Positions 1 through 12,959 of a stretch of 64,000 bases of DNA are shown here, piece by piece. This stretch comes from Candidatus Saccharimonadota bacterium. GTDB lineage: Bacteria > Patescibacteriota > Saccharimonadia > Saccharimonadales > DTSZ01. The translations under genes and the position numbers were made by a program. The notes below the pieces were generated by a model. The model was not told where the DNA came from, searched no databases, and was given only the letters and a program-made list of their open reading frames with translations. Numbering within the stretch: the stretch's first letter is position 1; every line of letters begins with the position of its first letter. Location of the stretch: positions 503,763 through 567,762 of the forward strand of contig DTSZ01000001.1 of assembly GCA_012965045.1 (NCBI GenBank). Direction: 5' to 3'.

Positions 1-3000
1 CCCGATCCAACTGTATCGAATTCAATGCCTCCTATATTACTGGCTCCTCCCGTTTTATTACCATCTATCTTAAGATCACGAACAGTAATATCACTGTTAC
101 CGCTAACTTGGTCGGAGTTTTCGATTATATTAAATCCGCTTGCGCTATTTCCGACTGTGATCACACTTCCAGTGCCTACTCCTGAAAGAGTAGTGTTGGA
201 AGGTACCGCGATTTGAGCATCAACGTCATAGGTACCAGCAAGTAGAAGAACCTTACCGCCACTTGCTGCAGTTAAGGCCGAATTAATTTCGTCTTCGTCA
301 CTGGTTCCGTCAGCTACGTAGTCAGCTGCATCTTTTTCGGCTTGGGTAGAGTCATTAGCGGCAACTATGGTGTATTCACCACTGTCTGCTTTCCATTTAC
401 CGTTAGCGTAAGTTAGTAGTTTGTCTGTTGTAGTGTCGAAGTAAACCATACCTTCGGTTGGGCTGGCTGGGCGAGATGCGGTGTTACCGCCGGTAATGGT
501 AAGACTATTGCCGGCACCAAGCACAACGTCGCCGTTGAAAGTACTTGTTCCACCGTCAGCTACTGTTAGCACTGCACTACCACCGTCTTGGACAATGAAT
601 GAACCTGTTCCAGTAATGTCTACAGTAAAGTTAGTTGCTTCACTAACAGTAAGGTCAATGTCTCCACCAGCATCGTCAGCCACAATGGTGTTGCCGCCGT
701 CGTAAGCTACTTGCAGAGTAACAGTAGAGGCAGTTAGGAAGGTAGAGTTACAACTTGCCAGTTGACCAGAGCTGTTTCGACACACCACTGCGTCGTTGTC
801 GGCTGCGGCTGCAGTGTAGCTTACTGTTCCGTTAACAGTAAGTGCACTGTTGGCTAGTTGTAATAGATCAGTATCGGCAGCGATTCCAATGTCGCCACCT
901 TCTACTTCTAGGTTGCCACTGAGTGCGGTAATTGCAGCAGTAATGTCTATTGTGCCGTTAGTGCTATTACTAATGACTTCGTCGTTTTCGAGAGTGATGT
1001 CTCCACCTTGAACGTCAAGTGCACCGGTGATGTCTACGTTCGCACCGAGGGTAATGTCGCCAGCTGGTTGGATTAGGTAGTCGCCGGTGGTTTGGTCTTG
1101 TATTTGACCGCCATAAATGGTGCCGGTGCCGCTATCGTTGATAGTCCAATCGTCGTCACCGTCACTATCCGAAACGTAGTTATCGGCAATGTAGTTGTTG
1201 TCTGAGCTAGCATTAAAAATATTAATGCCATAACAGTCAGTGTTACATTCAGTGTCTAATACACGGTTGCTAGTAATCTGGTTATTATCAGAGTTATTAA
1301 TATAGATTGCATTAAATCTGCTAGCTCCGCCGCTTACATTCGAAAGGTTGCCGGTGATGACGTTTGAATCACTGGTGTCGAGACGTATTGCTTCGTTTGT
1401 AGAGCTGTAAATACTGTTTCCAGATATAACGTTGAAGTCGTTGCTGCCAGCAAGATACATTCCACGGTTGCTACCATCTACGGTGTTGCTGCTGACGCTG
1501 TTGTTTTCTGAAGATGAGAAGTAGAGTCCATTACCCGTTACGTTTAACACCGTGTTGCCTGTGATAGTGTTGCTATCTGCATTAGCAAAATGCATTCCGT
1601 CTGTACTGTCAGCTACAGTGTTACCAGTAATAGTGTTGTTGTCAGAAGCAACGTAGAAACCTCGACTGCCACCTTCGGCATAGTTATCGGTAAAGGTGTT
1701 GCTTGTACTTGTAACAGTAACCGTATATTGGTACGTAGTGTTGTTTATAGAGGCGTTGTTCGTTATAGAGTTACTCACACTAGTGCTCGTTAGCGTAATA
1801 CCTTCAGCGTTATTAATAACTGTACTGCCCGACACACGACTGTTGTCGCTCGCAACAAGTTGGATACCGTTGTTCCTAAAGTCTTGTACGTGCACGTTAC
1901 TAATATTTGCCCCCAAACGACTACTAGCAAGATCTCCTACTCCGTTAAAATAAATACCACGTTGCGTCCCCACCGTATTCAAATCATCACGGCCATCGAG
2001 CTTTAGGTCACGGATAGTTACGCCAGTACCAGTTGTAGTGTCGCTGTTTTCAATTAGGTTGTCGGTGGCGTCTATGTCAGCTAGCTCAATGACTGTTCCA
2101 TTACCAACACCAGCCAAAGTAGTGTTGTTAGGTATAAGGATGGTTCCATCAGCTACGTAGGTACCAGCAAGTAGAAGAACCTTACCGCCACTTGCTGCAG
2201 TTAAGGCCGAATTAATTTCGTCTTCGTCACTGGTTCCGTCAGCTACGTAGTCAGCTGCATCTTTTTCGGCTTGGGTAGAGTCATTAGCGGCAACTATGGT
2301 GTATTCACCACTGTCTGCTTTCCATTTACCGTTAGCGTAAGTTAGTAGTTTGTCTGTTGTAGTGTCGAAGTAAACCATACCTTCGGTTGGGCTGGCTGGG
2401 CGAGATGCGGTGTTACCGCCGGTAATGGTAAGACTATTGCCGGCACCAAGCACAACGTCGCCGTTGAAAGTACTTGTTCCACCGTCAGCTACTGTTAGCA
2501 CTGCACTACCACCGTCTTGGACAATGAATGAACCTGTTCCAGTAATGTCTACAGTAAAGTTAGTTGCTTCACTAACAGTAAGGTCAATGTCTCCACCAGC
2601 ATCGTCAGCCACAATGGTGTTGCCGCCGTCGTAAGCACCCTGAAGGTTAAAGTTGGCAGTGCTTAGGAATGTAGAACTACAAGCCGCGAGTTGGTTAGAT
2701 GTGTTTCTACAGACCACGGAGTCGTTGTCGGCAGCGGCAAGAGTTGCTACCTGAACTGTGTCATTAAGGATAATTTCACCAGTACCATTAGCGACCACCG
2801 TTAGGTTCTCGTCGGTACCTGTAGTTATGTCCGTAACAACACCACTAATAGTCAATGAACCAGTGTCGAGTGTAAGGCTGTCTGCAGTCAGAGCATCTTG
2901 TATATCCACGTTGCCACCTGAGCTGTTGATAGTAAGATCTCCGTCGCTTGCGGTTGTAAGATCTGTGTAGTTGGCGGCTGAACCATCTGCGTCATTGTAA

Positions 3001-4616
3001 GTAAGACGCAAGTTACTGCCTGTAGCTGAATTTATTTCGACTTGGCTATCTGGGCCGTTAGTACCTATACCGACGCTTCCGCCGCCATCAATGACCAGCA
3101 CATCTGTAGTATCGGTTTGGTTGTAGACTCTAAATTTGCCGTTATTGTTTCCAAGCCTATACTCATCTCCTGCGGTGTCGGTAAATCTAATTTCTGGAAC
3201 GGTGCCAGAAAGATGAAGTAATTGCTGTGGGCTGGACGTCCCAATCCCTATCCTCTCATTAGTTGTATCTACATTTAAGATCGGTGTGCCGCCATCGGCA
3301 TCCAAGAACTGATAAGCCGTAGTTGAATCCGTTCCGTTCTGGAGCGTAAAGTTGTTGCCAGCGAAAGTCTTCGCCCCAGCAAAGGTTTGGGTGCCGGTTG
3401 AGACGAGTCCGGGGTAGGTTGCATCAGCCGTTTGCAGGAATAGTTCGTTCGCAGAAATAACGCCACCATTGGCATTCTTAGAAGCGCCATTTAAGGTACC
3501 AACTGCAGTAGCACCACTGCCCGCACCGTCAATGTTTGTGCCAACCCACACAGTTCCGTTCCAAATAAATGCTTGGCTGCGTTGACTGTTTATTGTTACG
3601 CCGTACATAGCAAAGCTTTCGGTACCGACGTTGTTAACATACACAACGCGACCACCTGTTGTGACGGTTGGATCTGGCAATGTTAGCGTTTGACCAGATG
3701 TAGTCTGATTAACATTTAGCGTACTGGCAATATCTACTGAATTTGCAGCCGTTTCTACATCGCCGCCACCGCTTACGTCGCTAATTGTGATCGCCGTAAA
3801 TAAGCTACTGCCAGCGTTGGTGAATTGGTTGCCTGCAGTTACCGACAGGTCGCCGTCAAACGTCGAATTACCAGTAACCGTTAGTACGCCCGCATTCGTA
3901 AGAGTAAGAATATCGCTACCGCCATTTTGCAGCTGAAGTAAATTACCAGTGTTAGTTTTGTTAATAAATATGCTGCTATTCGTAGTGTTGTCAGTTTGTG
4001 CGCTGCCTTGAGCCAGTTGAACGAAGTCTGTTGAATCTAAGTTGTCTAGCGTATCAGCGTTATCAGCTTGGAAGGCATACGGGCTAGCAGAGAATCTCAT
4101 GAATGGATCCATTTCGCCGTCGTAGCTGGCAGCACCACCACTGCCACCAATGTCGACAGTCAGCCACAAAGTATCTTCGGTGAAGTCGACGCCAGACAGT
4201 GACGTTAGTGATCCAAGTTGTACCGTAAAGTAACCATTTTCTACCCGAACAAGATTTCCGGTAGAGTGAGCCTCTGTCCATTCCAGTGTTTCATCGCCGC
4301 CGCCAAGATTACCGTCGCCGCCAGAATAGATTCTAAATCGAATGTGATAGTCGCCATCAGGAACAATTCCCTGCGCAGAGTTGCGTAAGCGACCCTGGAA
4401 GGTGAATTGTTCGTTAATGGCAGTTGCGGAGTGAGGGGCTAGTGCTACGAGAGCAGTCATTACAGAAAGAGCAACCAAAAGCACCCCTACACTGCCCAGG
4501 TAGCGGGCGCTTGCTACTGAGCAGTGTATGAATGCCTTAGTTTCTGAAAACGCAAAAACACTACCTTTAACCAAGGTAGTTAATGCATGTGCTAGTGATG
4601 AGAAAATTGTTCTCAT
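1..4616 (-). CDS. Giant secreted/surface protein, N-terminal >=1538 aa (3' end beyond left edge). Tail-fibre-like N-domain plus repeated Pectate_lyase_3/PbH1-type parallel beta-helix modules
   Basis: Absent from the supplied track because it has no stop inside the window. My hand translation of the reverse complement from ATG 4616 (GAGG just upstream) stays open to position 3. It starts MRTIFSSLAHALTT...VGVLLVALSVMTALVALAPHSATA (hydrophobic anchor/signal), then FTFQGRLRNSAQGIVPDGDYHIRFRIYSGG. ADGTSDEDEINSALTAASGGKVLLLAGTY follows, then beta-helix turns NNTITGNTVADS, SNTITGNTVLNV, NNSVSSNTVDGS, FNVISGNSIYSS, SNVITGNLSNV, NNQITSNRVLD. No track ORF occupies this minus frame. Confidence 0.8.
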   Translation of the reverse strand, partial: MRTIFSSLAHALTTLVKGSVFAFSETKAFIHCSVASARYLGSVGVLLVALSVMTALVALAPHSATAINEQFTFQGRLRNSAQGIVPDGDYHIRFRIYSGGDGNLGGGDETLEWTEAHSTGNLVRVENGYFTVQLGSLTSLSGVDFTEDTLWLTVDIGGSGGAASYDGEMDPFMRFSASPYAFQADNADTLDNLDSTDFVQLAQGSAQTDNTTNSSIFINKTNTGNLLQLQNGGSDILTLTNAGVLTVTGNSTFDGDLSVTAGNQFTNAGSSLFTAITISDVSGGGDVETAANSVDIASTLNVNQTTSGQTLTLPDPTVTTGGRVVYVNNVGTESFAMYGVTINSQRSQAFIWNGTVWVGTNIDGAGSGATAVGTLNGASKNANGGVISANELFLQTADATYPGLVSTGTQTFAGAKTFAGNNFTLQNGTDSTTAYQFLDADGGTPILNVDTTNERIGIGTSSPQQLLHLSGTVPEIRFTDTAGDEYRLGNNNGKFRVYNQTDTTDVLVIDGGGSVGIGTNGPDSQVEINSATGSNLRLTYNDADGSAANYTDLTTASDGDLTINSSGGNVDIQDALTADSLTLDTGSLTISGVVTDITTGTDENLTVVANGTGEIILNDTVQVATLAAADNDSVVCRNTSNQLAACSSTFLSTANFNLQGAYDGGNTIVADDAGGDIDLTVSEATNFTVDITGTGSFIVQDGGSAVLTVADGGTSTFNGDVVLGAGNSLTITGGNTASRPASPTEGMVYFDTTTDKLLTYANGKWKADSGEYTIVAANDSTQAEKDAADYVADGTSDEDEINSALTAASGGKVLLLAGTYVADGTILIPNNTTLAGVGNGTVIELADIDATDNLIENSDTTTGTGVTIRDLKLDGRDDLNTVGTQRGIYFNGVGDLASSRLGANISNVHVQDFRNNGIQLVASDNSRVSGSTVINNAEGITLTSTSVSNSITNNASINNTTYQYTVTVTSTSNTFTDNYAEGGSRGFYVASDNNTITGNTVADSTDGMHFANADSNTITGNTVLNVTGNGLYFSSSENNSVSSNTVDGSNRGMYLAGSNDFNVISGNSIYSSTNEAIRLDTSDSNVITGNLSNVSGGASRFNAIYINNSDNNQITSNRVLDTECNTDCYGINIFNASSDNNYIADNYVSDSDGDDDWTINDSGTGTIYGGQIQDQTTGDYLIQPAGDITLGANVDITGALDVQGGDITLENDEVISNSTNGTIDITAAITALSGNLEVEGGDIGIAADTDLLQLANSALTVNGTVSYTAAAADNDAVVCRNSSGQLASCNSTFLTASTVTLQVAYDGGNTIVADDAGGDIDLTVSEATNFTVDITGTGSFIVQDGGSAVLTVADGGTSTFNGDVVLGAGNSLTITGGNTASRPASPTEGMVYFDTTTDKLLTYANGKWKADSGEYTIVAANDSTQAEKDAADYVADGTSDEDEINSALTAASGGKVLLLAGTYDVDAQIAVPSNTTLSGVGTGSVITVGNSASGFNIIENSDQVSGNSDITVRDLKIDGNKTGGASNIGGIEFDTVGS
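229..707 (-). repeat. Intragenic repeat copy 1 (479 bp, identical to 2158-2636)
   Basis: Line-by-line comparison at an offset of 1929 bp. The shadow ORFs 481..705 and 2410..2634 give identical peptides. Flanks on both sides are homologous but clearly diverged. Confidence 0.85.
2158..2636 (-). repeat. Intragenic repeat copy 2 (479 bp, identical to 229-707)
   Basis: Same evidence as copy 1. Encodes ...LQxAYDGGNTIVADDAGGDIDLTVSEATNFTVDITGTGSFIVQDGG...RPASPTEGMVYFDTTTDKLLTYANGKWKADSGEYTIVAANDSTQAEKDAADYVADGTSDEDEINSALTAASGGKVLLLAGTY. Confidence 0.85.
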
Positions 4617-4675
4617 TAACCTCTTTTTACAAAAGACAGGTCAAATGAGAGCGCCCAAGGTATTATCTAAAATCT

Positions 4676-4715
4676 AAAAAAGACTACTTGGCTGGCAATA
4701 GCCAACCTCATAGTC
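4676..4715 (-). terminator. Rho-independent terminator after the PKD-protein gene and upstream of the giant gene
   Basis: On the minus strand: GACTA-TGAGG-TTGGCT-ATTGCC-AGCCAA-G-TAGTC followed by TTTTTT. Inner stem is 6 bp and outer stem is 5 bp. Confidence 0.6.
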
Positions 4716-4967
4716 TTTCCCCGAAATGATAACTCATGCGCGCCCTGCATGTGATACCTACTTTTTCTCTTTTTATTTTACTCCGCCTCAATCCGTAAAC
4801 TTTTTTTAGATTTTTGTTTATATCTTTATAAGTTTTTTATTTGGATATAAGGATGACATTATTTAAGCATATTCACTTTGGTAAAGCAATGACTTTATGC
4901 TTACTTTTCCACAGTTTGAATTTATATAGATCAAATGATTGATATCAACTTACTATAATAGTTACTT

Positions 4968-5945
4968 CTAAGCGTGTGACTGCTTGAATCCGCGGCTGCC
5001 GATTAGGTTGCCGCCATGACGTTGTTTGTGCTTGTCTGACCAGCGCTGGAAGGATCTACCGATAACAAACGCTACGAACACGCAGACGACAAGCGCGTAG
5101 ATTGGCCACAAGACGTACTGGTCACGTACCACAACATTGGCATTCGGGTCGGCCTCTTGGGTTATGCCACCTACTGCAGGGCCGTTAACAATAGTTAAAA
5201 CCTGCACAAAAGCCAATCGTCCATCTGCATCTGTCGCCTTTACAGTTACAGAATACGTGCCGGACTGATCATAGACATGAGTTGGATTGAATTCACCGCT
5301 ATCATCTAAGCTCAACAGGGTATCCTCGCTTCCGTCGCCCCAATCGATTGATATAGCGTACGGGGCAACACCGCCGCTTACTGATAACGGCCAGGTAATT
5401 TCGTCGCCGGGGTTTACACCCCGCGCACCAAAGTTAGATGTAATGACAAACGGCGATATAGTAGCGATATTTTGCCCGACATCAACACCACCATCTTGCG
5501 GTTGGTAGTTGACTATAACCGGAGCAGAATCTGGCCCCTGTTGGTTAAGAGCATCAAAGGTGCTGGCAATTATGGTATTTAATCCTGGCAGTAAGTCGAT
5601 TTGTAACTGGAAGGTACCATCTTCCAGACAAAGCACTGACCCAGCAAAGGCACCGTTACGACTGATTTGAATAATAGTCCCCGGTACACATTCACCACGA
5701 ACAGCTGTAGGAGTGGAGACAAGTACTTCTTGTTGAGAAGGTACATCAATAACTGCTGGAATATCTGGCGGCGGCCCTGGCACGGTGCCTGTTAAACCAA
5801 CTGATCCGCTTTGAGGATTTTCAACTGTCTGCGCGTTGACATTAGTGAGCGGAATAATAAAAACCCCGACAAACACTAATAGCACGAGTAGCATGTGAGC
5901 TAGCTCGTGCCATAGTTTTGTGTGTTTAGTGTATTCGTGTTGCAT
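4968..5945 (-). CDS. Membrane-anchored PKD-domain surface protein
   Basis: Track ORF of 325 aa. N-terminal hydrophobic segment MLLVLLVFVGVFIIPL, PKD-like module ISIDWGDGSEDT...HVYDQSGTYSVTVKATDADG, C-terminal TM (WPIYALVVCVFVAFVIG) plus a basic tail. Confidence 0.7.
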   Translation of the reverse strand: MQHEYTKHTKLWHELAHMLLVLLVFVGVFIIPLTNVNAQTVENPQSGSVGLTGTVPGPPPDIPAVIDVPSQQEVLVSTPTAVRGECVPGTIIQISRNGAFAGSVLCLEDGTFQLQIDLLPGLNTIIASTFDALNQQGPDSAPVIVNYQPQDGGVDVGQNIATISPFVITSNFGARGVNPGDEITWPLSVSGGVAPYAISIDWGDGSEDTLLSLDDSGEFNPTHVYDQSGTYSVTVKATDADGRLAFVQVLTIVNGPAVGGITQEADPNANVVVRDQYVLWPIYALVVCVFVAFVIGRSFQRWSDKHKQRHGGNLIGSRGFKQSHA

Positions 5946-5994
5946 TTTTGTTTATACGCTTATGCTATACAGCATACCACACTAGTAAAGTTGC

Positions 5995-6987
5995 TTAGAA
6001 TCGTCGTGATTTGTTTTGGACTTTTTTAGCATATGACTTAAGGAATAGTCGGCCGCCACCAATAATCACAATCAAACCACCGACAACACCAAGGATAATC
6101 GGCCACGGTAACACCCAAAAGGTTTCATTGACTGCAATAATATCACCACCATCACCATACGATAGGTTGCCCGCTATGGTATAGCGACCAAATTGATATT
6201 TTTCTGACAAATCATTTTCGAACCGACGAATACTGTCTGGCAGGGCAAAGCCGCGCCGAGTGTTGTCGCTATTAAACTCTACTACCTCTTTGACGTTGCC
6301 GACAAAGTTAGAAACTTCAATCCTACCAAACGGAGCTGCGTGAGTGTTACCATTATTTTGAATACGAGCAACAATTTGATCTGGGCTTGCTGTAAAGAAC
6401 GATCCCAATTCTCCATCTTTAGCTGCACCGATTTCTAGTAGACTCAGGTTCTCTACCTCTTCGCCTGCTACGTTTAGAAGAACGATAGTACCAACACTTG
6501 CTGCAAGTGTTACATCTTGATCTGGGTCTGCTTCATTGGCAGCTGTAAATCTTACAATTCCATAATGTCCGCCAGGTGTAGCGTTAGTTGGTACATCCAA
6601 GGTGACTGGGATATCTATAGTCTCGTCTGGTTGTAGCGTAAAGCTGTCAATTGGCTGGAAGTATGTTCTAATACCAAACTCATTTGGTTCTGTTGATTCC
6701 TTAACGATAATTTGCGGCGTACCACTCTCATCTTCTGATGGTAAGAAGTCATTAAAGTTAACCACTACCGTTAATGGGTTGGCTGTGACATTTTTAACTG
6801 TAATAGGGTTCTGGAGTGTTATCCTCTGCCCTGGCTCGGCTTCCGCCTCCTCGACAAGTGTCGACAGCGCAAGACCATTCCCTTGACTGTTCTGTCCGTT
6901 TGCTAAAGATGTAAATCCGAAAATACTTACTGTTGCTATCACTACCATCAACATCATTTTCTGTAGCACAGATAGACGTGAAACCAT
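5995..6987 (-). CDS. DUF916/DUF3324-like (CscA-like) cell-surface protein with C-terminal TM anchor
   Basis: 330 aa with a signal peptide. Two Ig-like halves carry PGGHYGIVRF and QFGRYTIAGNL motifs at the positions typical of DUF916/DUF3324. A single C-terminal TM (WPIILGVVGGLIVIIGGG) is followed by a basic tail KKVQNKSRRF. Assignment rests on remembered family architecture, not a search. Confidence 0.6.
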   Translation of the reverse strand: MVSRLSVLQKMMLMVVIATVSIFGFTSLANGQNSQGNGLALSTLVEEAEAEPGQRITLQNPITVKNVTANPLTVVVNFNDFLPSEDESGTPQIIVKESTEPNEFGIRTYFQPIDSFTLQPDETIDIPVTLDVPTNATPGGHYGIVRFTAANEADPDQDVTLAASVGTIVLLNVAGEEVENLSLLEIGAAKDGELGSFFTASPDQIVARIQNNGNTHAAPFGRIEVSNFVGNVKEVVEFNSDNTRRGFALPDSIRRFENDLSEKYQFGRYTIAGNLSYGDGGDIIAVNETFWVLPWPIILGVVGGLIVIIGGGRLFLKSYAKKVQNKSRRF

Positions 6988-7073
6988 TTTTCCTCCATTT
7001 TATTTATCAACTTCTGATAACTATAGCTAAACTACTTACGCTAAGCAAGAATATCAATTAATAACAGTTGGTT

Positions 7074-8174
7074 TTAAAACGTGGCCGTAGCTACATATGT
7101 AAGCGTTGTTGAATATATACCCTTTGGCTGGTTTTCGGGAATATTAACAATGTAGCTGGCTGTGAAGGTTTTTCTGTCGCTTGGGATTGGGCTGACAGCA
7201 ACAGTATCACCAGATATGAACTTATATACATTGGGTGTGTTGTAGTTACTGGCAACAGTTGCCGTACCCGGGCCAGCTGGCTCTAAACCAACGACTGGTT
7301 GTGTGTTTGCGCGAAGGTTGAGCCCAAACTGCTTCGTGCCTGTTTGACTTGCCGTCGGGGACGCCATGTTTGTAATTGTATTATTTCCAGATGTCATTGT
7401 AGTGCCAAGGACAGAAACTGCATACCCAAACTCGGCATTGGTATAGGCTAAGAATTTTGAAGTGCCAGTTTTTGTGGTGTTACTTGATAACTCACCAAAA
7501 CTCAGCTGAAATCCTGTAGCGGTACCACAATCATTGGCTAGGATTGTCGTACCAACACAAAATGTCAAAAACGGCGGAACATACGCTTGAATGTTAAAGC
7601 GAGTATTAAGCGCGAAAGCTAATCCACCTTGGTCAACCACATTACCGGTGATGCGACCATCAGTACTATCATAGGTCCGTATTCGAACATAATGAGATCC
7701 CGCTGTATCTGGATTTATCAAGTTCCCAAAATCGAAACTGGTCGTTGCGACGGTCGTATTTTGGGCGGCTACTCTATTTACAACAATGTAGTTGTTGTCA
7801 GTATATGTACCGTTATACGTACTCGGGTGAACCACAAAACTATCAGCTATAGGCTGGTCTGCCTCGCCTGATTGGTCGTCTATTGAAGCATTAGTCACAT
7901 CGATACCGCTCGGCGCAGTACAAGGTTCTGAAGGTATTGGACTGTTTGAGCAATATTCAAATTCAATTGATCCTACATTCCCCCCAAGTTCAAGGTCGAA
8001 CGTATAATCGTGGTTTACAGCTAGCTGGCTCGGCGTCGATGAAGATAGCTCTATGGATCGATCACCAATATCAGCCGCTGTGACATGTTTTGCGAAATAC
8101 GGAAACGGCACACTTGAAATCAAGAGTGCCGTTATTCCGATACTTGCTAGTGTTTGTGCAAGTCTATGTCGCAT
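7074..8174 (-). CDS. Secreted surface protein, paralog family (CSNSPIPS motif, C-terminus ...TLTYVATATF)
   Basis: 366 aa with a signal peptide. Shares RSI-x-LS...EFEYCSNSPIPSEPCTAPSGIDV with the two 450-aa paralogs and FGLNLRANT with the 248-aa protein. Ends in an aromatic residue. Confidence 0.7.
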   Translation of the reverse strand: MRHRLAQTLASIGITALLISSVPFPYFAKHVTAADIGDRSIELSSSTPSQLAVNHDYTFDLELGGNVGSIEFEYCSNSPIPSEPCTAPSGIDVTNASIDDQSGEADQPIADSFVVHPSTYNGTYTDNNYIVVNRVAAQNTTVATTSFDFGNLINPDTAGSHYVRIRTYDSTDGRITGNVVDQGGLAFALNTRFNIQAYVPPFLTFCVGTTILANDCGTATGFQLSFGELSSNTTKTGTSKFLAYTNAEFGYAVSVLGTTMTSGNNTITNMASPTASQTGTKQFGLNLRANTQPVVGLEPAGPGTATVASNYNTPNVYKFISGDTVAVSPIPSDRKTFTASYIVNIPENQPKGIYSTTLTYVATATF

Positions 8175-8186
8175 TACTATTCAATC

Positions 8187-9536
8187 TTAGAAGCTTGAAG
8201 TAGCTATGTAAACAATTGAGGTGTTATACACACCAGTAGGTGTTGTAATTGCAGCCGTACCACCAAAGTCAATTACTAACATTTCGTCGTCTAACACTGT
8301 AGAGCTTGAAGCAATTGTGTCAGCTGTTAGGTCGTTAGCAACGAATGTGTATTGAGCAGGTGTATCGTATTCTGCGTCTTCAGCTAGGTTCGAAGTCGTA
8401 CCGTTGGTTACGTCAATTGATGAAATTGTCATACCAAAGTTTTCAGTACCAGCTACGATCGCTGCTTCTGTAGCACCAACTGCGTTAATACAGCCGTTCA
8501 CTTGCGAGGCGGCGCCGTCAGTACAGTCTGCACCATTCTTAGAAAGGTAGCCGTCGTTGGTGTCGTTTGCACCACCAACACCACCACCGCCGTCGTCGTT
8601 GACGTCTTGGCCAGCGTCGGCGAAGTAGCTAATAGTTGCACCATTAGCAGCGTTGGTTCTAATCATGGCATAGGCGTTACTGTCTTCGGCTGAAGCAGTG
8701 TTAACGCTTGTTGAATCTAAGACACCCATGTCAATGTCATTGCCGCTTATGTCATCACAGTCGTTTGTGGTCGCTGCGTCAGTATCACCGACACAGAACT
8801 CTAAGACTTCCTGAACTCGAGCTGTAATAGTTAGCGTGTCAACAGTACTCATTGCGATACCGCCGTCATCTTCGTAAGAAGACGTTAAGTCTTGTGCATC
8901 AGCATCATTGTCTGCGTACAAACGAGCATAGAATGAACCAAAGTTGTTGGCACCAGCGGTGTCACTTGGGTTAATAATGTCCGCAGTTGCATCAACAGGA
9001 GAAAGAGTTATACGTACATATCGTTCAGTTGAATAGTTTGCACTTGTTGAATGTTCAATTACAAGCGTTGTTCCGTCTGATCGAAGCGTGTCAGTTATAG
9101 CTTCTTCATCAAAACTCCAGTCAGCAGAGACATCAGTTGGAGATGCAAAACCAGAGTTGTCGTCCGTTTCAACAGTTAGGGTGACGTTGTCTGACACATC
9201 ACCGTCGTTGTCGGTGTCAAAGTCCGGTACATCTAAACCTTCGGTAGCAGTACAAGCGTCAGATGGAATTGGACTGTTAGAACAGAACTCAAGCGTATAT
9301 CCTTCAAAGTCAGCCACGGTCGTTGTGTCGCCCGGGTTGAAGTAAAACTCGTGAGTATAGGTAACTCCAACCGCACTAACGCGGCTATCTGAGATCGCGA
9401 TAGATCGTTGGTCTAATTGCGCTGCGTCAACGCGTTGAGCGCTGAGCATAAATGGTGCGAAGCTAGCAAAAACTAATGCAGCTATCTGCAACCACGCAGC
9501 AACAGACGAATTTAAATTAATATTGAAGTGTTTCAT
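8187..9536 (-). CDS. Secreted acidic surface protein, tandem duplicate copy 1 (C-terminus ...SIVYIATSSF)
   Basis: The track ORF starts at 9545 (MSVMKHF...). ATG 9536 (MKHFNINL) matches the start of copy 2. Signal peptide, EFCSNSPIPSDACTATEGLDV motif, very Asp/Thr/Ser-rich. Confidence 0.75.
   Translation of the reverse strand: MKHFNINLNSSVAAWLQIAALVFASFAPFMLSAQRVDAAQLDQRSIAISDSRVSAVGVTYTHEFYFNPGDTTTVADFEGYTLEFCSNSPIPSDACTATEGLDVPDFDTDNDGDVSDNVTLTVETDDNSGFASPTDVSADWSFDEEAITDTLRSDGTTLVIEHSTSANYSTERYVRITLSPVDATADIINPSDTAGANNFGSFYARLYADNDADAQDLTSSYEDDGGIAMSTVDTLTITARVQEVLEFCVGDTDAATTNDCDDISGNDIDMGVLDSTSVNTASAEDSNAYAMIRTNAANGATISYFADAGQDVNDDGGGGVGGANDTNDGYLSKNGADCTDGAASQVNGCINAVGATEAAIVAGTENFGMTISSIDVTNGTTSNLAEDAEYDTPAQYTFVANDLTADTIASSSTVLDDEMLVIDFGGTAAITTPTGVYNTSIVYIATSSF
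8254..9536 (-). repeat. Tandem duplication block, copy 1 (1283 bp, identical to 9772-11054)
   Basis: Offset 1518 bp. The encoded proteins are identical from MKHF to ...IDFGGTA. Shadow ORFs 8502..8693/10020..10211 and 9088..9345/10606..10863 are identical. Confidence 0.85.
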
Positions 9537-9646
9537 GACAGACATGTCTCCTTATTTGTTTTTGTTTTAGCTAGGGTACTATCTAATTTAACACAAGCAT
9601 TTCACTAATAACAACTATTTATCCACAGGTACAGTAGTGAAACAGA

Positions 9647-9673
9647 AAGAACGACCAGGTCTTGGTCGTTCTT
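9647..9673 (-). terminator. Hairpin terminator between the two duplicated genes
   Basis: On the minus strand: AAGAACGACCA-AGACC-TGGTCGTTCTT (11-bp perfect stem) followed by T-rich TCTGTTTC. Confidence 0.5.
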
Positions 9674-9704
9674 GTATCCGTTAGATGGAGGTGGATATTG
9701 AAAG

Positions 9705-11054
9705 CTAGAATACTGCGGTAGCAATATACACGATAGACGTATTGTATACGCCAGTCGGTGTAGTGATGTTTGCCGTACCACCAAAGTCAATTACTAACAT
9801 TTCGTCGTCTAACACTGTAGAGCTTGAAGCAATTGTGTCAGCTGTTAGGTCGTTAGCAACGAATGTGTATTGAGCAGGTGTATCGTATTCTGCGTCTTCA
9901 GCTAGGTTCGAAGTCGTACCGTTGGTTACGTCAATTGATGAAATTGTCATACCAAAGTTTTCAGTACCAGCTACGATCGCTGCTTCTGTAGCACCAACTG
10001 CGTTAATACAGCCGTTCACTTGCGAGGCGGCGCCGTCAGTACAGTCTGCACCATTCTTAGAAAGGTAGCCGTCGTTGGTGTCGTTTGCACCACCAACACC
10101 ACCACCGCCGTCGTCGTTGACGTCTTGGCCAGCGTCGGCGAAGTAGCTAATAGTTGCACCATTAGCAGCGTTGGTTCTAATCATGGCATAGGCGTTACTG
10201 TCTTCGGCTGAAGCAGTGTTAACGCTTGTTGAATCTAAGACACCCATGTCAATGTCATTGCCGCTTATGTCATCACAGTCGTTTGTGGTCGCTGCGTCAG
10301 TATCACCGACACAGAACTCTAAGACTTCCTGAACTCGAGCTGTAATAGTTAGCGTGTCAACAGTACTCATTGCGATACCGCCGTCATCTTCGTAAGAAGA
10401 CGTTAAGTCTTGTGCATCAGCATCATTGTCTGCGTACAAACGAGCATAGAATGAACCAAAGTTGTTGGCACCAGCGGTGTCACTTGGGTTAATAATGTCC
10501 GCAGTTGCATCAACAGGAGAAAGAGTTATACGTACATATCGTTCAGTTGAATAGTTTGCACTTGTTGAATGTTCAATTACAAGCGTTGTTCCGTCTGATC
10601 GAAGCGTGTCAGTTATAGCTTCTTCATCAAAACTCCAGTCAGCAGAGACATCAGTTGGAGATGCAAAACCAGAGTTGTCGTCCGTTTCAACAGTTAGGGT
10701 GACGTTGTCTGACACATCACCGTCGTTGTCGGTGTCAAAGTCCGGTACATCTAAACCTTCGGTAGCAGTACAAGCGTCAGATGGAATTGGACTGTTAGAA
10801 CAGAACTCAAGCGTATATCCTTCAAAGTCAGCCACGGTCGTTGTGTCGCCCGGGTTGAAGTAAAACTCGTGAGTATAGGTAACTCCAACCGCACTAACGC
10901 GGCTATCTGAGATCGCGATAGATCGTTGGTCTAATTGCGCTGCGTCAACGCGTTGAGCGCTGAGCATAAATGGTGCGAAGCTAGCAAAAACTAATGCAGC
11001 TATCTGCAACCACGCAGCAACAGACGAATTTAAATTAATATTGAAGTGTTTCAT
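9705..11054 (-). CDS. Secreted acidic surface protein, tandem duplicate copy 2 (C-terminus ...SIVYIATAVF)
   Basis: 449 aa. AGGAG lies 8 nt upstream of ATG 11054. Identical to copy 1 apart from the last ~21 codons. Confidence 0.8.
   Translation of the reverse strand: MKHFNINLNSSVAAWLQIAALVFASFAPFMLSAQRVDAAQLDQRSIAISDSRVSAVGVTYTHEFYFNPGDTTTVADFEGYTLEFCSNSPIPSDACTATEGLDVPDFDTDNDGDVSDNVTLTVETDDNSGFASPTDVSADWSFDEEAITDTLRSDGTTLVIEHSTSANYSTERYVRITLSPVDATADIINPSDTAGANNFGSFYARLYADNDADAQDLTSSYEDDGGIAMSTVDTLTITARVQEVLEFCVGDTDAATTNDCDDISGNDIDMGVLDSTSVNTASAEDSNAYAMIRTNAANGATISYFADAGQDVNDDGGGGVGGANDTNDGYLSKNGADCTDGAASQVNGCINAVGATEAAIVAGTENFGMTISSIDVTNGTTSNLAEDAEYDTPAQYTFVANDLTADTIASSSTVLDDEMLVIDFGGTANITTPTGVYNTSIVYIATAVF
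9772..11054 (-). repeat. Tandem duplication block, copy 2
   Basis: See 8254-9536. Confidence 0.85.
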
Positions 11055-11175
11055 TTTGAAACTCCTTAATTTTTGTTTTTATTTTTTAAACCCACGCCTC
11101 AAAGGCATTGTTTTTTTATTTTTGCCTACGTGTAGTTACTTTTTACCATAAGTGTTTTATAAAAAGCAAATTATT

Positions 11176-11922
11176 TTAATACGTAGCTGTGGCTACTAAA
11201 ATATGATCCATTGAAAATTCTCCACCTTCTGTTAATGGACCCGCGTTTGCAATATAGCTAATTGTAAAGTCTGTTTGCCCAGTTGATTCAGTTGATTCAG
11301 CGATGGTTTCTCCAACGTTGTATCTAAATTGGTTAGCCGTACCATAGCCAGCCGCAACGGTAGCAAAACTAAAACTGGCATCCGGAACCTGAGTAGGGTC
11401 AGCGCCGAAGGTTGTTGGGCTCGTATTAGCAACTAAGTTCATGCCGAACTGCTCGGTGCCCGTAGAAGATGGCCCTGTTGATGTCATTGGGTCAAGTGTG
11501 GCTGGGCCATTGGAAGGTGGTTGGCTAAGCGTTTGCACCACCACGCCGTCGGCATTATAAGCACCAACACTAAACGTTGCTGTGCCCGTACCAGTAGTAG
11601 ATGTATCAATAAGCCCCAATCCTACTTCGCCACCGTTGACTGTAAACAACAGTGTTGGCTCAGCGTCCGTCGTAAAGCCAGCCAATAAGTTATAGCTAGC
11701 AGAGCTCGATTCGCCAGCCCCAATATCACCAAGATTACCTTGCAAGTTGTAGCCGGAGGAGTTTGCGTCACTGGTGCCAGCCGGACCAATAAAAAACTCG
11801 CCAAGATTATAGCTATTAGAGCTTGGCGCCTGTGCCAAGACGCTATTAATCGAGTTTAATGCAACTAGTAAAGCAATAAAAACGTATCTGGAAACCCTAT
11901 TAAACATAAGAACATTGTGCAT
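11176..11922 (-). CDS. Secreted surface protein, short paralog (three S-x-YNL repeats, C-terminus ...ILVATATY)
   Basis: 248 aa with a signal peptide (FIALLVALNSINSVLAQA). Contains SNSYNLGEFFIG / SSGYNLQGNLGDIG / SASYNLLAGF. FGMNLVANTSPT resembles FGLNLRANTQP of 7074..8174. Ends in an aromatic residue. Confidence 0.7.
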   Translation of the reverse strand: MHNVLMFNRVSRYVFIALLVALNSINSVLAQAPSSNSYNLGEFFIGPAGTSDANSSGYNLQGNLGDIGAGESSSASYNLLAGFTTDAEPTLLFTVNGGEVGLGLIDTSTTGTGTATFSVGAYNADGVVVQTLSQPPSNGPATLDPMTSTGPSSTGTEQFGMNLVANTSPTTFGADPTQVPDASFSFATVAAGYGTANQFRYNVGETIAESTESTGQTDFTISYIANAGPLTEGGEFSMDHILVATATY

Positions 11923-12005: not shown

Positions 12006-12959
12006 GTGGCGGAAGAAGAAACAAAAACAACTGATAATTCGAATGAGCCAACTGGCGAGCAAAAACCTGGCTTAGATTCGCAGGTAGCGCTCGATTCTTT
12101 TGATAAAAAGGAAGAAAAGAAAAAGAAGGGCTTTTTAAGTAACTTTAAAACCTTTAATCCGTTCTTTATAGCAATTGGCGGGATCTTTGTCGTTGTTTTA
12201 GTTGTACTAATTATTGTTTTTACTGGCAGTGAACCAGACACTTTTATAGGAGCAGACTTAAGCGAAGACGAACTAACCTCATTGATATCTGACAGCAGCG
12301 AAAATGAATCAACCGGCCAAGTTCTGCGAATTGGCCCAGCTACAGAATTTTCTCAAGACGTATCAGTGCTCCAAGATGTCGAAATCGTTGGTAACTTAGT
12401 TGTAGCAGGTGAAATCATTAGTGCAAATTCATCGCTGGCTGGACAAAACGCCGAAGACCCAACACAGGCTGGCGGCGACGACTTGCAAGTTGACGGCGAC
12501 GCACTATTTTCTGGAAACATCGCCACTCAAGGGTCATTAACAGTTAACGGTACACTTACTGTTAATAGCTCTATAACTGCTACATCAATTACAGCCACAA
12601 CCATAAATTCTACTGGCGACGCCACATTCTCGCGCCACATAGTGTCTAACGCCACGCTGGTTGTAGTTTCAACTGGATCTGCCGCAGGTTCTGGCGGAAC
12701 AACATCTGCTAGTGGAAACGACATTGCTGGTACGGTCACAATCAATACTGGTAGCGCCACAACAGCCGGCGTTTTAGCAAACATTGGCTTCCAGCAAGCC
12801 TATGGCAGCACGCCGAGCGTAGTTATTACTCCAGTCACCTCAGCAGCCGCCTTAACAGAGTATTTTGTAACCAGAACTACCACAGGATTTACTATCCAAA
12901 CAAACATTGCACCACCTATCGGCTCTACACTACAGTTTGATTACCATATTATTGAATAA
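12006..12959 (+). CDS. Membrane-anchored hypothetical protein (charged N-terminus, one TM, Thr/Ser/Gly-rich ectodomain)
   Basis: 317 aa with a GTG start and GAGGAG 10 nt upstream. TM segment FFIAIGGIFVVVLVVLIIVF. The C-terminal ~90 aa (DIAGTVTINTG...GFQQAYGSTPSVVITP...YFVTRTTTGFTIQT...LQFDYHIIE) looks like a small beta-sandwich/lectin-like domain (inference). Confidence 0.6.
   Translation: MAEEETKTTDNSNEPTGEQKPGLDSQVALDSFDKKEEKKKKGFLSNFKTFNPFFIAIGGIFVVVLVVLIIVFTGSEPDTFIGADLSEDELTSLISDSSENESTGQVLRIGPATEFSQDVSVLQDVEIVGNLVVAGEIISANSSLAGQNAEDPTQAGGDDLQVDGDALFSGNIATQGSLTVNGTLTVNSSITATSITATTINSTGDATFSRHIVSNATLVVVSTGSAAGSGGTTSASGNDIAGTVTINTGSATTAGVLANIGFQQAYGSTPSVVITPVTSAAALTEYFVTRTTTGFTIQTNIAPPIGSTLQFDYHIIE

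What the first reader, a model, noticed from the sequence alone, without database searches (positions are those of the whole stretch)
1..4616. Giant beta-helix surface protein gene hidden from the ORF track
The track shows only short plus-strand ORFs across the first 4.6 kb. The minus strand nevertheless carries one frame that stays open from ATG 4616 to the window edge, >=1538 codons by my hand translation. The product has the following parts:
- a hydrophobic N-terminal anchor/signal
- a tail-fibre-like N-domain (FTFQGRL...DGDYHIRFRIY...LWLTVDIGG)
- Cys-bracketed linkers (AAADNDxVVCRNxSxQLAxCxSTFL)
- an RPASPTEGMVYFDTTTDKLLTYANGKW motif
- Pectate_lyase_3-like starts followed by PbH1-type turns

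A multi-kb adhesin or depolymerase-like protein sitting next to a surface-protein locus is a strong candidate for host or substrate attachment in a small-genome bacterium.
Basis: partly seen in the sequence, partly recalled or inferred. Interest (0 to 1): 0.6.

Follow-up and report, generated by a model that had tools for sequence, protein, structure and literature searches.

The report
Giant mosaic surface fibre of Saccharibacteria
The window's first 4.6 kb holds the front half of a real 3045-residue secreted fibre protein from an ultrasmall Saccharibacteria bacterium; it is built from phage-tail-like modules, including two tailspike-like beta-helices, and is a good candidate for how this parasite-like cell grips its host.

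Summary
The minus frame from ATG 4616 to the window edge has 1538 codons and no stop. A 930-kb public scaffold that is identical to the window where they overlap extends it to 3045 aa (NCBI HIA91974.1, "hypothetical protein", Candidatus Saccharibacteria). It was "hidden" only because the ORF list omits ORFs that run off the window.

The protein has these parts:
- a Sec-type leader
- a conserved ~115-aa beta-sandwich N-domain
- fibre shafts with phage-tail-fibre / Bdellovibrio-MAT capping-loop motifs
- two [adaptor + cap + right-handed parallel beta-helix] cassettes
- a CBM-like module and a conserved C-terminal tip

The two cassettes share a 479-nt block that is 100% identical, 1929 nt apart and in frame.

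The N-region defines a very large unannotated family (25,476 representative clusters). The ends are conserved and the middle is mosaic, and some members end in Peptidase_S74.

The best reading is a cell-surface host- or glycan-binding fibre that works like Bdellovibrio MAT fibres and phage tailspikes. Membership of MAT is below threshold. AlgE-type catalysis is excluded. Whether the helices bind only or also cleave glycans is open. I class it as a new variant of a known kind, of moderate interest.

The parts
3..4616 (-). First 1538 codons of a 3045-codon gene (NCBI HIA91974.1). The remaining 1507 codons lie to the left of the window.
4620..4624 (-). Shine-Dalgarno AGAGG, 3 nt upstream of start codon ATG 4614-4616. 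The 351-nt intergenic region 4617-4967 holds promoter-like and terminator-like sites (consensus scan only).
4419..4616 (-). Leader, aa 1-66: a long basic n-region, the only hydrophobic segment in the protein (aa 39-62), and ATA|INEQ, an AXA-type cleavage site directly before the N-domain.
   Evidence: paralogue and homologues show the same AXA-then-N-domain layout
4077..4418 (-). Family-defining N-domain, aa ~67-180: a beta-sandwich with invariant Q, R, DG.Y, F, W, G, L.G and D.EM residues.
   Evidence: AF2 pLDDT >90; present at the N-terminus of 80-86 of 117 homologues; invariant columns
4014..4109 (-). Neck motif aa 170-201 (PFMRFSASPYAFQADNADTLDNLDSTDFVQLA). It matches positions 129-160 of the NCBIfam Bdello_MAT_N model, below that model's cut-off.
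3540..3782 (-). Small beta-domain, aa ~279-359 (TLPDPT...GRVVYVNNVG...FIWNGTVW). A second copy lies at aa ~2526-2582, outside the window, where Pfam gives a weak Phage_depo_C hit.
   Evidence: pLDDT 82-92
2757..3329 (-). Fibre shaft, aa 430-620, with two 'xVGIGTxxPxxxL' capping-loop motifs (aa 456 and 515).
   Evidence: Best PDB hits are Bdellovibrio MAT fibres Bd3182 (8OJN, E 0.002) and Bd1334; tail fibre proteins of Roseobacter, Pelagibacter and cyanophages (E down to 2e-8)
2637..2741 (-). Cys-bracketed hairpin 1 (C636/C646) and the diverged start of adaptor 1.
2158..2636 (-). Copy A of the 479-nt perfectly identical block (aa 661-819): the adaptor, the RPASPTEGMVYFDTTT...W motif, and the beta-helix N-cap up to LLLAGTY.
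   Evidence: contigs of three other assemblies end 30, 91 and 127 nt into this block
1077..2309 (-). Beta-helix 1 with both caps (aa ~770-1180): a right-handed parallel beta-helix of CASH/NosD/AlgE type. The caps are conserved; the central coils are variable.
813..1076 (-). Inter-cassette fibre linker, aa 1181-1268.
708..812 (-). Cys-bracketed hairpin 2 (C1279/C1289) and the diverged start of adaptor 2.
229..707 (-). Copy B of the 479-nt identical block (aa 1304-1462), 1929 nt (643 codons, in frame) from copy A.
3..380 (-). Start of beta-helix 2 (aa ~1413-1538; it continues to aa ~1770 outside the window, where Pfam Beta_helix scores best).

Best explanation
The gene encodes a Sec-exported, very acidic, disulfide-stapled giant fibre of a Saccharibacteria cell. 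It is most likely a trimer. The conserved N-domain, which becomes the mature N-terminus once the leader is cut, is inferred to dock the fibre on the bacterium's own envelope. From there a shaft made of phage-tail-fibre-type modules projects outward. The shaft carries two tailspike-like beta-helix cassettes in series, then a CBM-like module and a conserved C-terminal tip. These outer parts are inferred to bind surface glycans of the host bacterium, and possibly to cut them. Diversity arises by module shuffling. Both the cassette ends and the protein ends are conserved while their centres vary. The 479-nt perfect in-frame direct repeat gives a ready substrate for homologous recombination that would delete or duplicate cassette 1 without breaking the frame. 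What is shown: the gene, the leader, the domain folds, the mosaic family and the repeat. What is inferred: trimer state, surface retention, orientation, the ligand, and recombination in vivo.
For: The gene is real: 1538 and 3045 codons open, an SD is present, and the same sequence appears in four independent assemblies. Export: there is a single hydrophobic segment followed by AXA directly before the N-domain, 8 Cys pairs, and 351 D+E against 97 K+R. Beta-helix: Pfam and NCBIfam hits; AF2 pLDDT >90 and pTM 0.73; the profile hits AlgE4 at 5e-26 and NosD at 1e-17; Foldseek hits AlgE6/AlgE4, lyases, the Sf6/HK620/Det7 tailspikes, phi29 gp12 and the PfbA adhesin. Phage-module homology: the cap matches minor tail/tailspike proteins of seven Streptomyces phage records, and Frankenweenie gp166 itself has tandem beta-helix cassettes with the same cap (E 3e-13). 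The shaft matches tail fibres of marine phages and the MAT fibres Bd3182 and Bd1334 in the PDB. MAT-like layout: a ~115-aa beta-rich domain directly follows the leader, as described for all 21 MATs (PMC10769870). Bdello_MAT_N hits 9 of 22 family members, with a best E of 4.7e-8. P0082 aa 35-116 aligns to model positions 8-76 and the query's aa 170-201 to positions 129-160, so the matches are collinear. Some homologues end in Peptidase_S74. The family is mosaic, with conserved ends and 1-6 cassettes per protein. There are several paralogues in this 930-kb genome. Cassette caps are conserved while the central coils keep only the Asn ladder. The repeat is described. Published Tn-seq work shows that Saccharibacteria need multiple surface adhesins for epibiotic growth (PMC10633639).
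Against: Nothing here shows surface localisation, trimerisation or ligand binding. The Bdello_MAT_N scores (17.6-27 bits) are far below the curated 60-bit cut-off. An N-domain profile search of the annotated database returned only Saccharibacteria/Patescibacteria proteins and no Bdellovibrio protein. No anchoring device was found: there is no LPXTG motif and no second TM segment, so if the leader is cleaved the means of retention is unknown. The shaft regions were modelled at pLDDT <50 as a monomer. The host of this hydrothermal-plume organism is unknown. The perfect identity of the two repeat copies could partly reflect an assembler using one consensus for both.
Confidence: 0.6

Rival explanations
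1. The beta-helix cassettes are active polysaccharide depolymerases (lyase or hydrolase), as in phage tailspikes. On this reading the protein's main role is to digest host capsule or wall glycans for access or for food, with binding only a by-product. This overlaps with the best explanation rather than excluding it.
For: The closest solved folds are enzymes: AlgE epimerases, an alginate epimerase/lyase, the RbmB lyase, tailspike endoglycosidases and inulin lyases. There is a weak PHROG tailspike hit. A CBM_4_9-like module (E 1.2e-4; PDB 2zez, E 0.0015) is typical of glycan-active enzymes.
Against: The AlgE catalytic motif YG(F/I)DPH(D/E) is absent. It aligns to FRNNGIQLVAS, and no such motif occurs anywhere in the 3045 aa. 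Across 16 cassettes, no acidic or His residue in the central coils (aa ~920-1100) reaches 60% conservation; only the Asn ladder and Gly are kept. The non-catalytic adhesin PfbA matches about as well.
Confidence: 0.3
2. It is a structural envelope component, such as an S-layer-like coat, sheath or matrix protein, with no role in partner recognition.
For: NosD/CASH beta-helices occur in archaeal and bacterial surface-layer proteins (general knowledge). The protein is very acidic and Thr/Gly/Ser/Asn-rich. The neighbouring genes are other secreted surface proteins.
Against: Structural coat proteins are usually conserved and single-copy. This family is highly mosaic, with variable middles, 1-6 cassettes, several paralogues per genome, and alternative S74, Kelch or CBM parts. 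Its modules are shared with phage receptor-binding proteins.
Confidence: 0.08
3. It is a prophage or phage tail fibre gene, not a cellular gene.
For: Shaft and cap modules match phage tail proteins. Foldseek against viral models returns tail fibre, minor tail and S74 proteins.
Against: It has an N-terminal Sec leader with an AXA site, which virion proteins do not need. The N-domain and the C-terminal tip have no phage match. Its neighbours are the ATP synthase operon and secreted cellular proteins, with no phage genes. The same N-domain heads 25,476 representative clusters, and those that carry names are from Saccharibacteria or Patescibacteria.
Confidence: 0.03
4. The two-cassette architecture, or the perfect repeat, is an assembly artefact (a chimeric join or a collapsed consensus).
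For: Three short-read assemblies break inside the repeat. Only one assembly (the 930-kb scaffold, identical to the window) spans it.
Against: There are no Ns in the gene. The break points lie 30, 91 and 127 nt into the block, consistent with k-mer-sized repeat breaks (Logan unitigs; a k127 contig name), so a branching repeat exists in independent read sets. Each copy has its own diverged left and right flanks, and these give one linear path. Tandem cassettes are the norm in homologues. An NCBI MAG carries the same 3045-aa protein.
Confidence: 0.05

Closest known systems
Bdellovibrio bacteriovorus MAT (mosaic adhesive trimer) chimeric fibre proteins (Caulton et al. 2024, PMC10769870)
   Same: Both have a signal peptide followed directly by a conserved ~115-130-aa beta-rich N-domain. 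Both have a fibre shaft with the same capping-loop motif: the query's RIGIGTSSPQQLLHL aligns to Bd3182 RVGVGTTAPTSALHV. Both families are mosaic, include S74 and non-S74 members, and have several paralogues per genome in an organism that lives off other bacteria.
   Different: This protein is about three times longer, whereas MATs are ~1000 aa. It carries tandem single-chain right-handed beta-helix (tailspike/pectate-lyase-type) cassettes, which the cited text on MATs does not describe. The organism is a monoderm Patescibacterium, and no Patescibacteria appear in the paper's list of MAT-bearing lineages. N-domain similarity is below NCBI's cut-off, and no Bdellovibrio protein was retrieved by the profile search.
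Phage tailspikes and minor tail proteins with beta-helix receptor-binding/depolymerase domains (e.g. Streptomyces phage Frankenweenie gp166; Sf6, HK620 and Det7 tailspikes)
   Same: The cap sequence (AADYVxDGTxDExxI...G.V.L..GT) and the P..P..GM..DTT...G.W motif are shared with gp166. Like this protein, gp166 has several beta-helix cassettes in tandem. The beta-helix fold matches tailspikes.
   Different: It has a Sec leader and a cellular N-domain in place of a virion-attachment domain. It sits in a cellular genomic context. The N- and C-terminal domains have no phage match.
AlgE4/AlgE6 mannuronan C5-epimerase A-modules, and NosD (CASH-type parallel beta-helices)
   Same: These are the best sequence-profile and fold matches for the cap plus beta-helix (E 5e-26 and 1.6e-11).
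   Different: The catalytic YG(F/I)DPH(D/E) motif is absent. There are no R-modules, and the beta-helix is embedded in a 3045-aa fibre.
Gram-positive beta-helix adhesins such as Streptococcus pneumoniae PfbA
   Same: It is a surface protein with a right-handed parallel beta-helix used for binding rather than catalysis, and Foldseek matches it at E ~1e-6.
   Different: PfbA is LPXTG-anchored and has one helix. No LPXTG motif occurs here.

Membership tests
Right-handed parallel beta-helix / CASH (Pfam Beta_helix PF13229, NosD PF05048, TIGR03804) | Significant match to the family HMMs above the curated cut-offs | tested here: met
   In the window part: NosD 80.3 bits (cut-off 23.6), Beta_helix 46.5 bits (25.9), TIGR03804 48.6 bits (19.45). 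Full length: Beta_helix 140.5 bits.
Right-handed parallel beta-helix / CASH | Predicted three-dimensional beta-helix with stacked coils and an Asn ladder | tested here: met
   The AF2 model has pLDDT >90 over aa ~729-1180 and regular 3-strand coils. Invariant Asn residues recur about every 22-25 residues. 179 PDB matches have E<=1e-3, all of them beta-helix proteins among the 50 listed.
Pectate_lyase_3 (PF12708) | Match to PF12708 | tested here: not met
   There is no PF12708 hit at E<=1 on the 1538-aa part or at E<=0.1 on the full length. Some homologues (P0012, P0014, P0048) do carry it.
AlgE-type mannuronan C5-epimerase/lyase | Catalytic motif YG(F/I)DPH(D/E) in the A-module | tested here: not met
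   AlgE4 'sgYGFDPhEQT' aligns to the consensus 'segiklvasdn', which is FRNNGIQLVAS in the query. A regex search finds no YG[FIVL]D[PA]H or G.D.H anywhere in the protein.
MAT (mosaic adhesive trimer) superfamily | Conserved ~130-aa beta-rich N-terminal domain immediately after the signal peptide (NCBIfam NF053851 Bdello_MAT_N) | tested here: inconclusive
   Position and size fit. NF053851 hits the query at 17.6-24.9 bits and 9 of 22 family members (best E 4.7e-8), and the matches are collinear, but all are below the 60-bit cut-off. No Bdellovibrio protein was retrieved with the N-domain profile.
MAT superfamily | Fibre shaft with capping-loop motif (V-G-G/N-pi-x-x-P-x-x-x-L as published) | tested here: met
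   There are five xVG[IL]G[TVA]xxPxxxL-type motifs, at aa 456, 515, 1971, 2291 and 2396. The aa 440-484 segment aligns to both capping loops of Bd3182 (8OJN, E 0.002) and to Bd1334 (8OML, 8ON4). These are 3 of the 5 PDB hits. The E-values are marginal.
MAT superfamily | Intertwined trimer | not testable with these tools
   Only monomer AF2 was available, and the shaft regions come out at pLDDT <50. The indirect hint is that homologues with the same N-domain end in Peptidase_S74, a trimer-folding chaperone.
MAT superfamily | C-terminal S74 chaperone or an alternative adhesive tip | tested here: met
   This protein is of the non-S74 type. It has a CBM_4_9-like module (E 1.2e-4, below the gathering score) plus a conserved C-terminal domain shared by 58 of 117 homologues, always at the C-terminus.
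Phage tailspike / tail fibre (virion protein) | N-terminal virion-attachment domain and a phage genomic context | tested here: not met
   The N-domain has no match in 50,697 phage records. It has a Sec leader. The neighbours are cellular.
Trimeric autotransporter adhesin (a JGI name given to homologue P0029) | C-terminal YadA-type outer-membrane anchor | tested here: not met
   No such Pfam domain appears on the full-length protein. There is no hydrophobic or beta-barrel anchor signal. Saccharibacteria being monoderm rests on general knowledge.
LPXTG sortase-anchored adhesins | C-terminal LPXTG motif followed by a TM segment and a basic tail | tested here: not met
   There is no LP.T[GAS] motif and no hydrophobic segment after aa 80 (maximum KD 1.39). 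The C-terminus is ...INFTYTND.

The most novel reading that the evidence does not exclude
Saccharibacteria, and perhaps Patescibacteria more widely, possess a very large and so far undescribed branch of the MAT-type chimeric fibre superfamily. These fibres would act as the cells' receptor-binding proteins and set host range, in the way tail fibres do for phages. They would diversify by exchanging tailspike and tail-fibre modules with phages (actinophage-like caps, marine-phage-like shafts). They would also vary within populations through RecA-mediated, frame-preserving gain or loss of whole beta-helix cassettes at perfect repeats such as the 479-nt block seen here.
Probability: 0.25. Interest if true: 0.75.

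Novelty: new variant of a known kind. Interest (0 to 1): 0.5.

Why it matters
How ultrasmall epibiotic bacteria recognise and hold on to particular hosts is largely unknown. Type IV pili and a few "adhesins" have been implicated genetically in two cultured strains (PMC10633639, PMC11623550). This protein belongs to a very large unannotated family whose design parallels the prey-recognition fibres of Bdellovibrio and the receptor-binding proteins of phages. That makes concrete, testable candidates for host-range determinants in Saccharibacteria. It also suggests that predators, epibionts and phages draw on one shared toolkit of fibre modules. On the practical side, the internal perfect repeat explains why this gene is truncated in most short-read assemblies.

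Tried and rejected
- A PDB sequence search with the whole 1538-aa part found nothing. Only domain-level queries and profiles were informative.
- The search for related loci with alignments A1 and A2 failed because no stretch was conserved enough.
- I assumed P0070 (2456 aa) was the downstream Kelch gene. It is from another genome.
- The afdb50 library was unavailable, so a direct structural comparison with Bdellovibrio MAT N-domains could not be made.
- The N-domain model against the PDB gave only generic Ig-like sandwiches, plus one low-TM tailspike hit (TM 0.2, rmsd 23 A), which I do not count as evidence.
- Viral Foldseek hits all have TM <=0.23. I use them only as a weak trend.
- The N-domain and the C-terminal tip have no match in phages. 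The far C-terminal shaft has no match in the PDB.
- Rejected: AlgE-like enzyme function, trimeric autotransporter, LPXTG anchoring and prophage origin (see the membership tests and rivals).
- Literature searches found no paper linking 'mosaic adhesive' fibres or tailspike-like proteins to Saccharibacteria.
Full report
**Observation.** The reverse-strand frame from ATG 4616 to base 3 translates into 1538 codons with no stop. The other two reverse frames contain 82 and 155 stops over the same span. An AGAGG ribosome-binding site lies 3 nt upstream of the ATG. The ORF lister shows nothing longer than 85 aa here simply because it omits ORFs that run off the source, so the gene was 'hidden' only for a technical reason.

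**Extension and identity.** An exact-match look-up of the neighbouring 325-aa PKD protein returned four assemblies from hydrothermal-vent and plume metagenomes. One of them, L001, is a 929,678-bp scaffold. It is identical to the window at all 15,945 shared bases, and the gene runs to a stop after 3045 codons with no Ns. The protein is in NCBI as HIA91974.1, 'hypothetical protein', Candidatus Saccharibacteria bacterium. Neighbouring proteins carry the same organism name. The other three contigs match with no mismatches and end inside the gene at nt 2010, 2071 and 2107.

**Internal repeat.** Residues ~626-890 and ~1269-1538 are homologous. Within them, a 479-nt block (aa 661-819 and aa 1304-1462; window 2158-2636 and 229-707) is 100% identical at the DNA level. 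Identity drops sharply to 60-70% and then to background on both sides. The spacing is 1929 nt, which is 643 codons. The three truncated contigs end 30, 91 and 127 nt into the block. This is what k-mer-limited assemblers do on entering a repeat, so independent read sets appear to see the repeat too. Perfect identity at synonymous sites next to old, diverged homologous flanks points to recent gene conversion. An assembler consensus is the alternative. Recombination between the two copies would remove or duplicate cassette 1 in frame; that step is inferred and was not observed.

**Architecture.**
- *Leader.* There is one hydrophobic segment (aa 39-62), followed by ATA|INEQ. The same AXA-then-N-domain layout appears in a paralogue and in homologues.
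- *N-domain.* The following ~115 aa fold as a confident beta-sandwich with pLDDT >90 and have a set of invariant residues.
- *Small beta-domain.* A small beta-domain at aa 279-359 also models well.
- *Shaft.* The shaft regions are modelled poorly as a monomer. They contain five 'VGIGTxxPxxxL' motifs.
- *Cassettes.* Each cassette has a Cys-bracketed hairpin, an adaptor, the RPxSPTEGMxYxDTxT...W motif, an alpha-helical cap (AADYVADGTxDExEINxAL...GGKVxLLxGTY) and a right-handed parallel beta-helix. The Pfam and NCBIfam hits are well above their cut-offs. The AF2 model has pLDDT >90 over aa ~729-1180 and pTM 0.73.
- *Outside the window.* There lie the rest of helix 2, more shaft, a CBM_4_9-like module (E 1.2e-4, below threshold; PDB 2zez at E 0.0015), a third YYDT...W motif and a C-terminal domain.
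- *Composition.* The protein is very acidic, with 351 D+E against 97 K+R. Sixteen of its 17 Cys form eight close pairs, as expected for an extracellular protein. There is no LPXTG motif and no second membrane segment.

**Relatives.**
- A full-length search found 117 giant proteins (1.7-5.2 kaa), none aligning over more than 40% of the query. Their source names are Saccharimonadales, Saccharibacteria or Patescibacteria.
- Mapping their matches shows that the N-terminal ~400 aa are shared by ~80 homologues and are N-terminal in 85 of 86 cases. The C-terminal ~600 aa are shared by ~58 and are always C-terminal. The middle is variable.
- Homologues carry 1-6 cassettes. Others carry Kelch propellers, CBMs or a C-terminal Peptidase_S74 chaperone.
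- A profile of the N-region scored against 1.84 billion representatives gives 25,476 hits at E<=1e-3 and 1,809 at E<=1e-30.
- An N-domain-only profile returns only unannotated proteins. Nearly all that carry an organism name are from Saccharibacteria or Patescibacteria.
- The same 930-kb scaffold holds further giant genes: a 2456-aa Kelch protein directly downstream, a 2016-aa paralogue, a 2826-aa gene with S74, and a partial gene with a 73%-identical N-domain.

**What the beta-helix is like.** The cassette profile hits the AlgE4 and AlgE6 A-modules (5e-26), then NosD, AlgG, alginate lyases and tailspikes. Foldseek agrees and adds the Sf6, HK620 and Det7 tailspikes, phi29 gp12, the RbmB lyase and the adhesin PfbA. 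The AlgE catalytic motif is absent. Across 16 cassettes both caps are strongly conserved, but the central coils (aa ~920-1100) keep only the Asn ladder and glycines. That pattern fits a scaffold whose working surface is diversified. It does not settle whether the cassettes only bind or also cleave.

**Phage links.** The N-domain and the C-terminal tip have no match in 50,697 phage records. The cap module matches seven records, all Streptomyces phages and annotated as minor tail or tailspike proteins. The best hit, Frankenweenie gp166, itself contains tandem beta-helix cassettes with the same cap, and one of them has the same preceding motif (E 3e-13). The shaft (aa 430-549) matches tail fibre proteins of Roseobacter, Pelagibacter and cyano-phages. 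Identities are 34-44%, so this is shared ancestry of modules and not recent transfer. Cultivated Saccharibacteria grow on Actinobacteria (PMC10633639), which makes the actinophage link suggestive. The host of this marine lineage is unknown.

**Link to Bdellovibrio MAT fibres.**
- NCBIfam's Bdello_MAT_N model gives sub-threshold hits to the query (aa 170-201 against model positions 129-160) and to 9 of 22 family members, with a best E of 4.7e-8. In P0082, aa 35-116 align to model positions 8-76, directly after the leader.
- For the shaft segment, 3 of the 5 PDB hits are the MAT crystal structures Bd3182 (8OJN/8ONB/8ONC, E 0.002) and Bd1334 (8OML, 8ON4). The alignment falls on the published capping loops.
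- The MAT paper describes a ~130-aa beta-rich domain right after the signal peptide, S74 and non-S74 subfamilies, chimeric tips and obligate trimerisation. It proposes that the N-domain binds a predator surface element. Its table of MAT-bearing lineages contains no Patescibacteria.
- The layout therefore matches and some sequence signals point the same way. Membership is not proven, because the scores are well below the 60-bit cut-off and no Bdellovibrio protein was retrieved.

**Mechanism proposed.** I propose Sec export, leader cleavage, docking of the conserved N-domain on the cell's own envelope, and a trimeric shaft that presents two beta-helix cassettes, a CBM-like module and a tip to the host surface. 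Family-level diversification would come from module exchange, and population-level variation possibly from recombination at the perfect repeat. The gene, leader, folds, mosaicism and repeat are shown. Everything about localisation, oligomer state, ligand and recombination is inferred.

**Rivals.**
- A primarily catalytic depolymerase is compatible with the best explanation and remains open.
- A structural coat protein is unlikely given the mosaicism.
- A prophage gene is contradicted by the leader, the genomic context and the distribution of the N-domain.
- An assembly artefact is unlikely given the k-mer-consistent break points, the distinct flanks and the tandem cassettes in homologues.

**Verdict.** Its account of the N-domain and of PF12708 needs correcting, and the 'hidden' aspect is an artefact of the ORF list. 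The gene is already public as a hypothetical protein. What is new is the reading of it as a MAT-like, phage-module-built host-recognition fibre, representing a very large uncharacterised Saccharibacteria family. I rate it a new variant of a known kind, of moderate interest.

Noticed in passing
window 4968-11922 (minus strand): A run of secreted or anchored proteins lies directly upstream of the giant gene. It comprises a 325-aa PKD protein with a C-terminal TM, a 330-aa protein with a weak WxL-interacting-protein PGBD match (E 0.022, covering nearly the whole model) and a C-terminal TM, and then 366-, 452-, 449- and 248-aa proteins. The last four all end in ...Y(I/V)ATA(T/S/V)(F/Y). The layout resembles the WxL/Csc cell-surface clusters of Firmicutes.
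   Followed up: partly
window 8187-9545 and 9705-11054 (minus strand): Two tandem, almost identical paralogues of 452 and 449 aa differ mainly in their last ~20 residues. This is a second recent duplication in the same surface locus. NCBI has them as HIA91978 and HIA91979.
   Followed up: no
window 12006-12959 (plus strand): This is the only plus-strand gene in the locus. It encodes a 317-aa protein with a charged N-terminus, one TM segment, and a weak bactofilin-like beta-helical repeat (E 0.008, below threshold).
   Followed up: no
L001 20656 onward; L011 1-16829 (same 930-kb scaffold): The genome carries several more giant genes: a 2456-aa Kelch/beta-propeller protein directly downstream with a different TM-type N-terminus, a 2016-aa paralogue (P0064), a 2826-aa gene with Peptidase_S74, and a partial gene of at least 848 aa whose N-domain is 73% identical to the query's. 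The four complete genes alone take up about 3% of a 930-kb genome.
   Followed up: partly
L002, L003, L004 (contig ends): Three independent short-read assemblies end 91, 127 and 30 nt into the 479-nt repeat. This gene family is therefore likely to be truncated systematically in metagenome assemblies. Many of the N-domain hits are in fact short 'partial' proteins at contig ends.
   Followed up: yes
L001 20468-20655: A long GC-rich inverted repeat (GACGGGGCAGG...CCTTGCCCCGTC) followed by a T-run lies just after the stop codon of the giant gene. It looks like an intrinsic terminator separating it from the Kelch gene.
   Followed up: no
L009 (another Saccharibacteria contig, JGI 3300026283): Another genome clusters a 6168-aa gene with Peptidase_S74, a 2456-aa family member (P0070) and a 1490-aa Kelch protein next to parA/parB. 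Clusters of giant fibre and Kelch genes therefore recur in this lineage.
   Followed up: no
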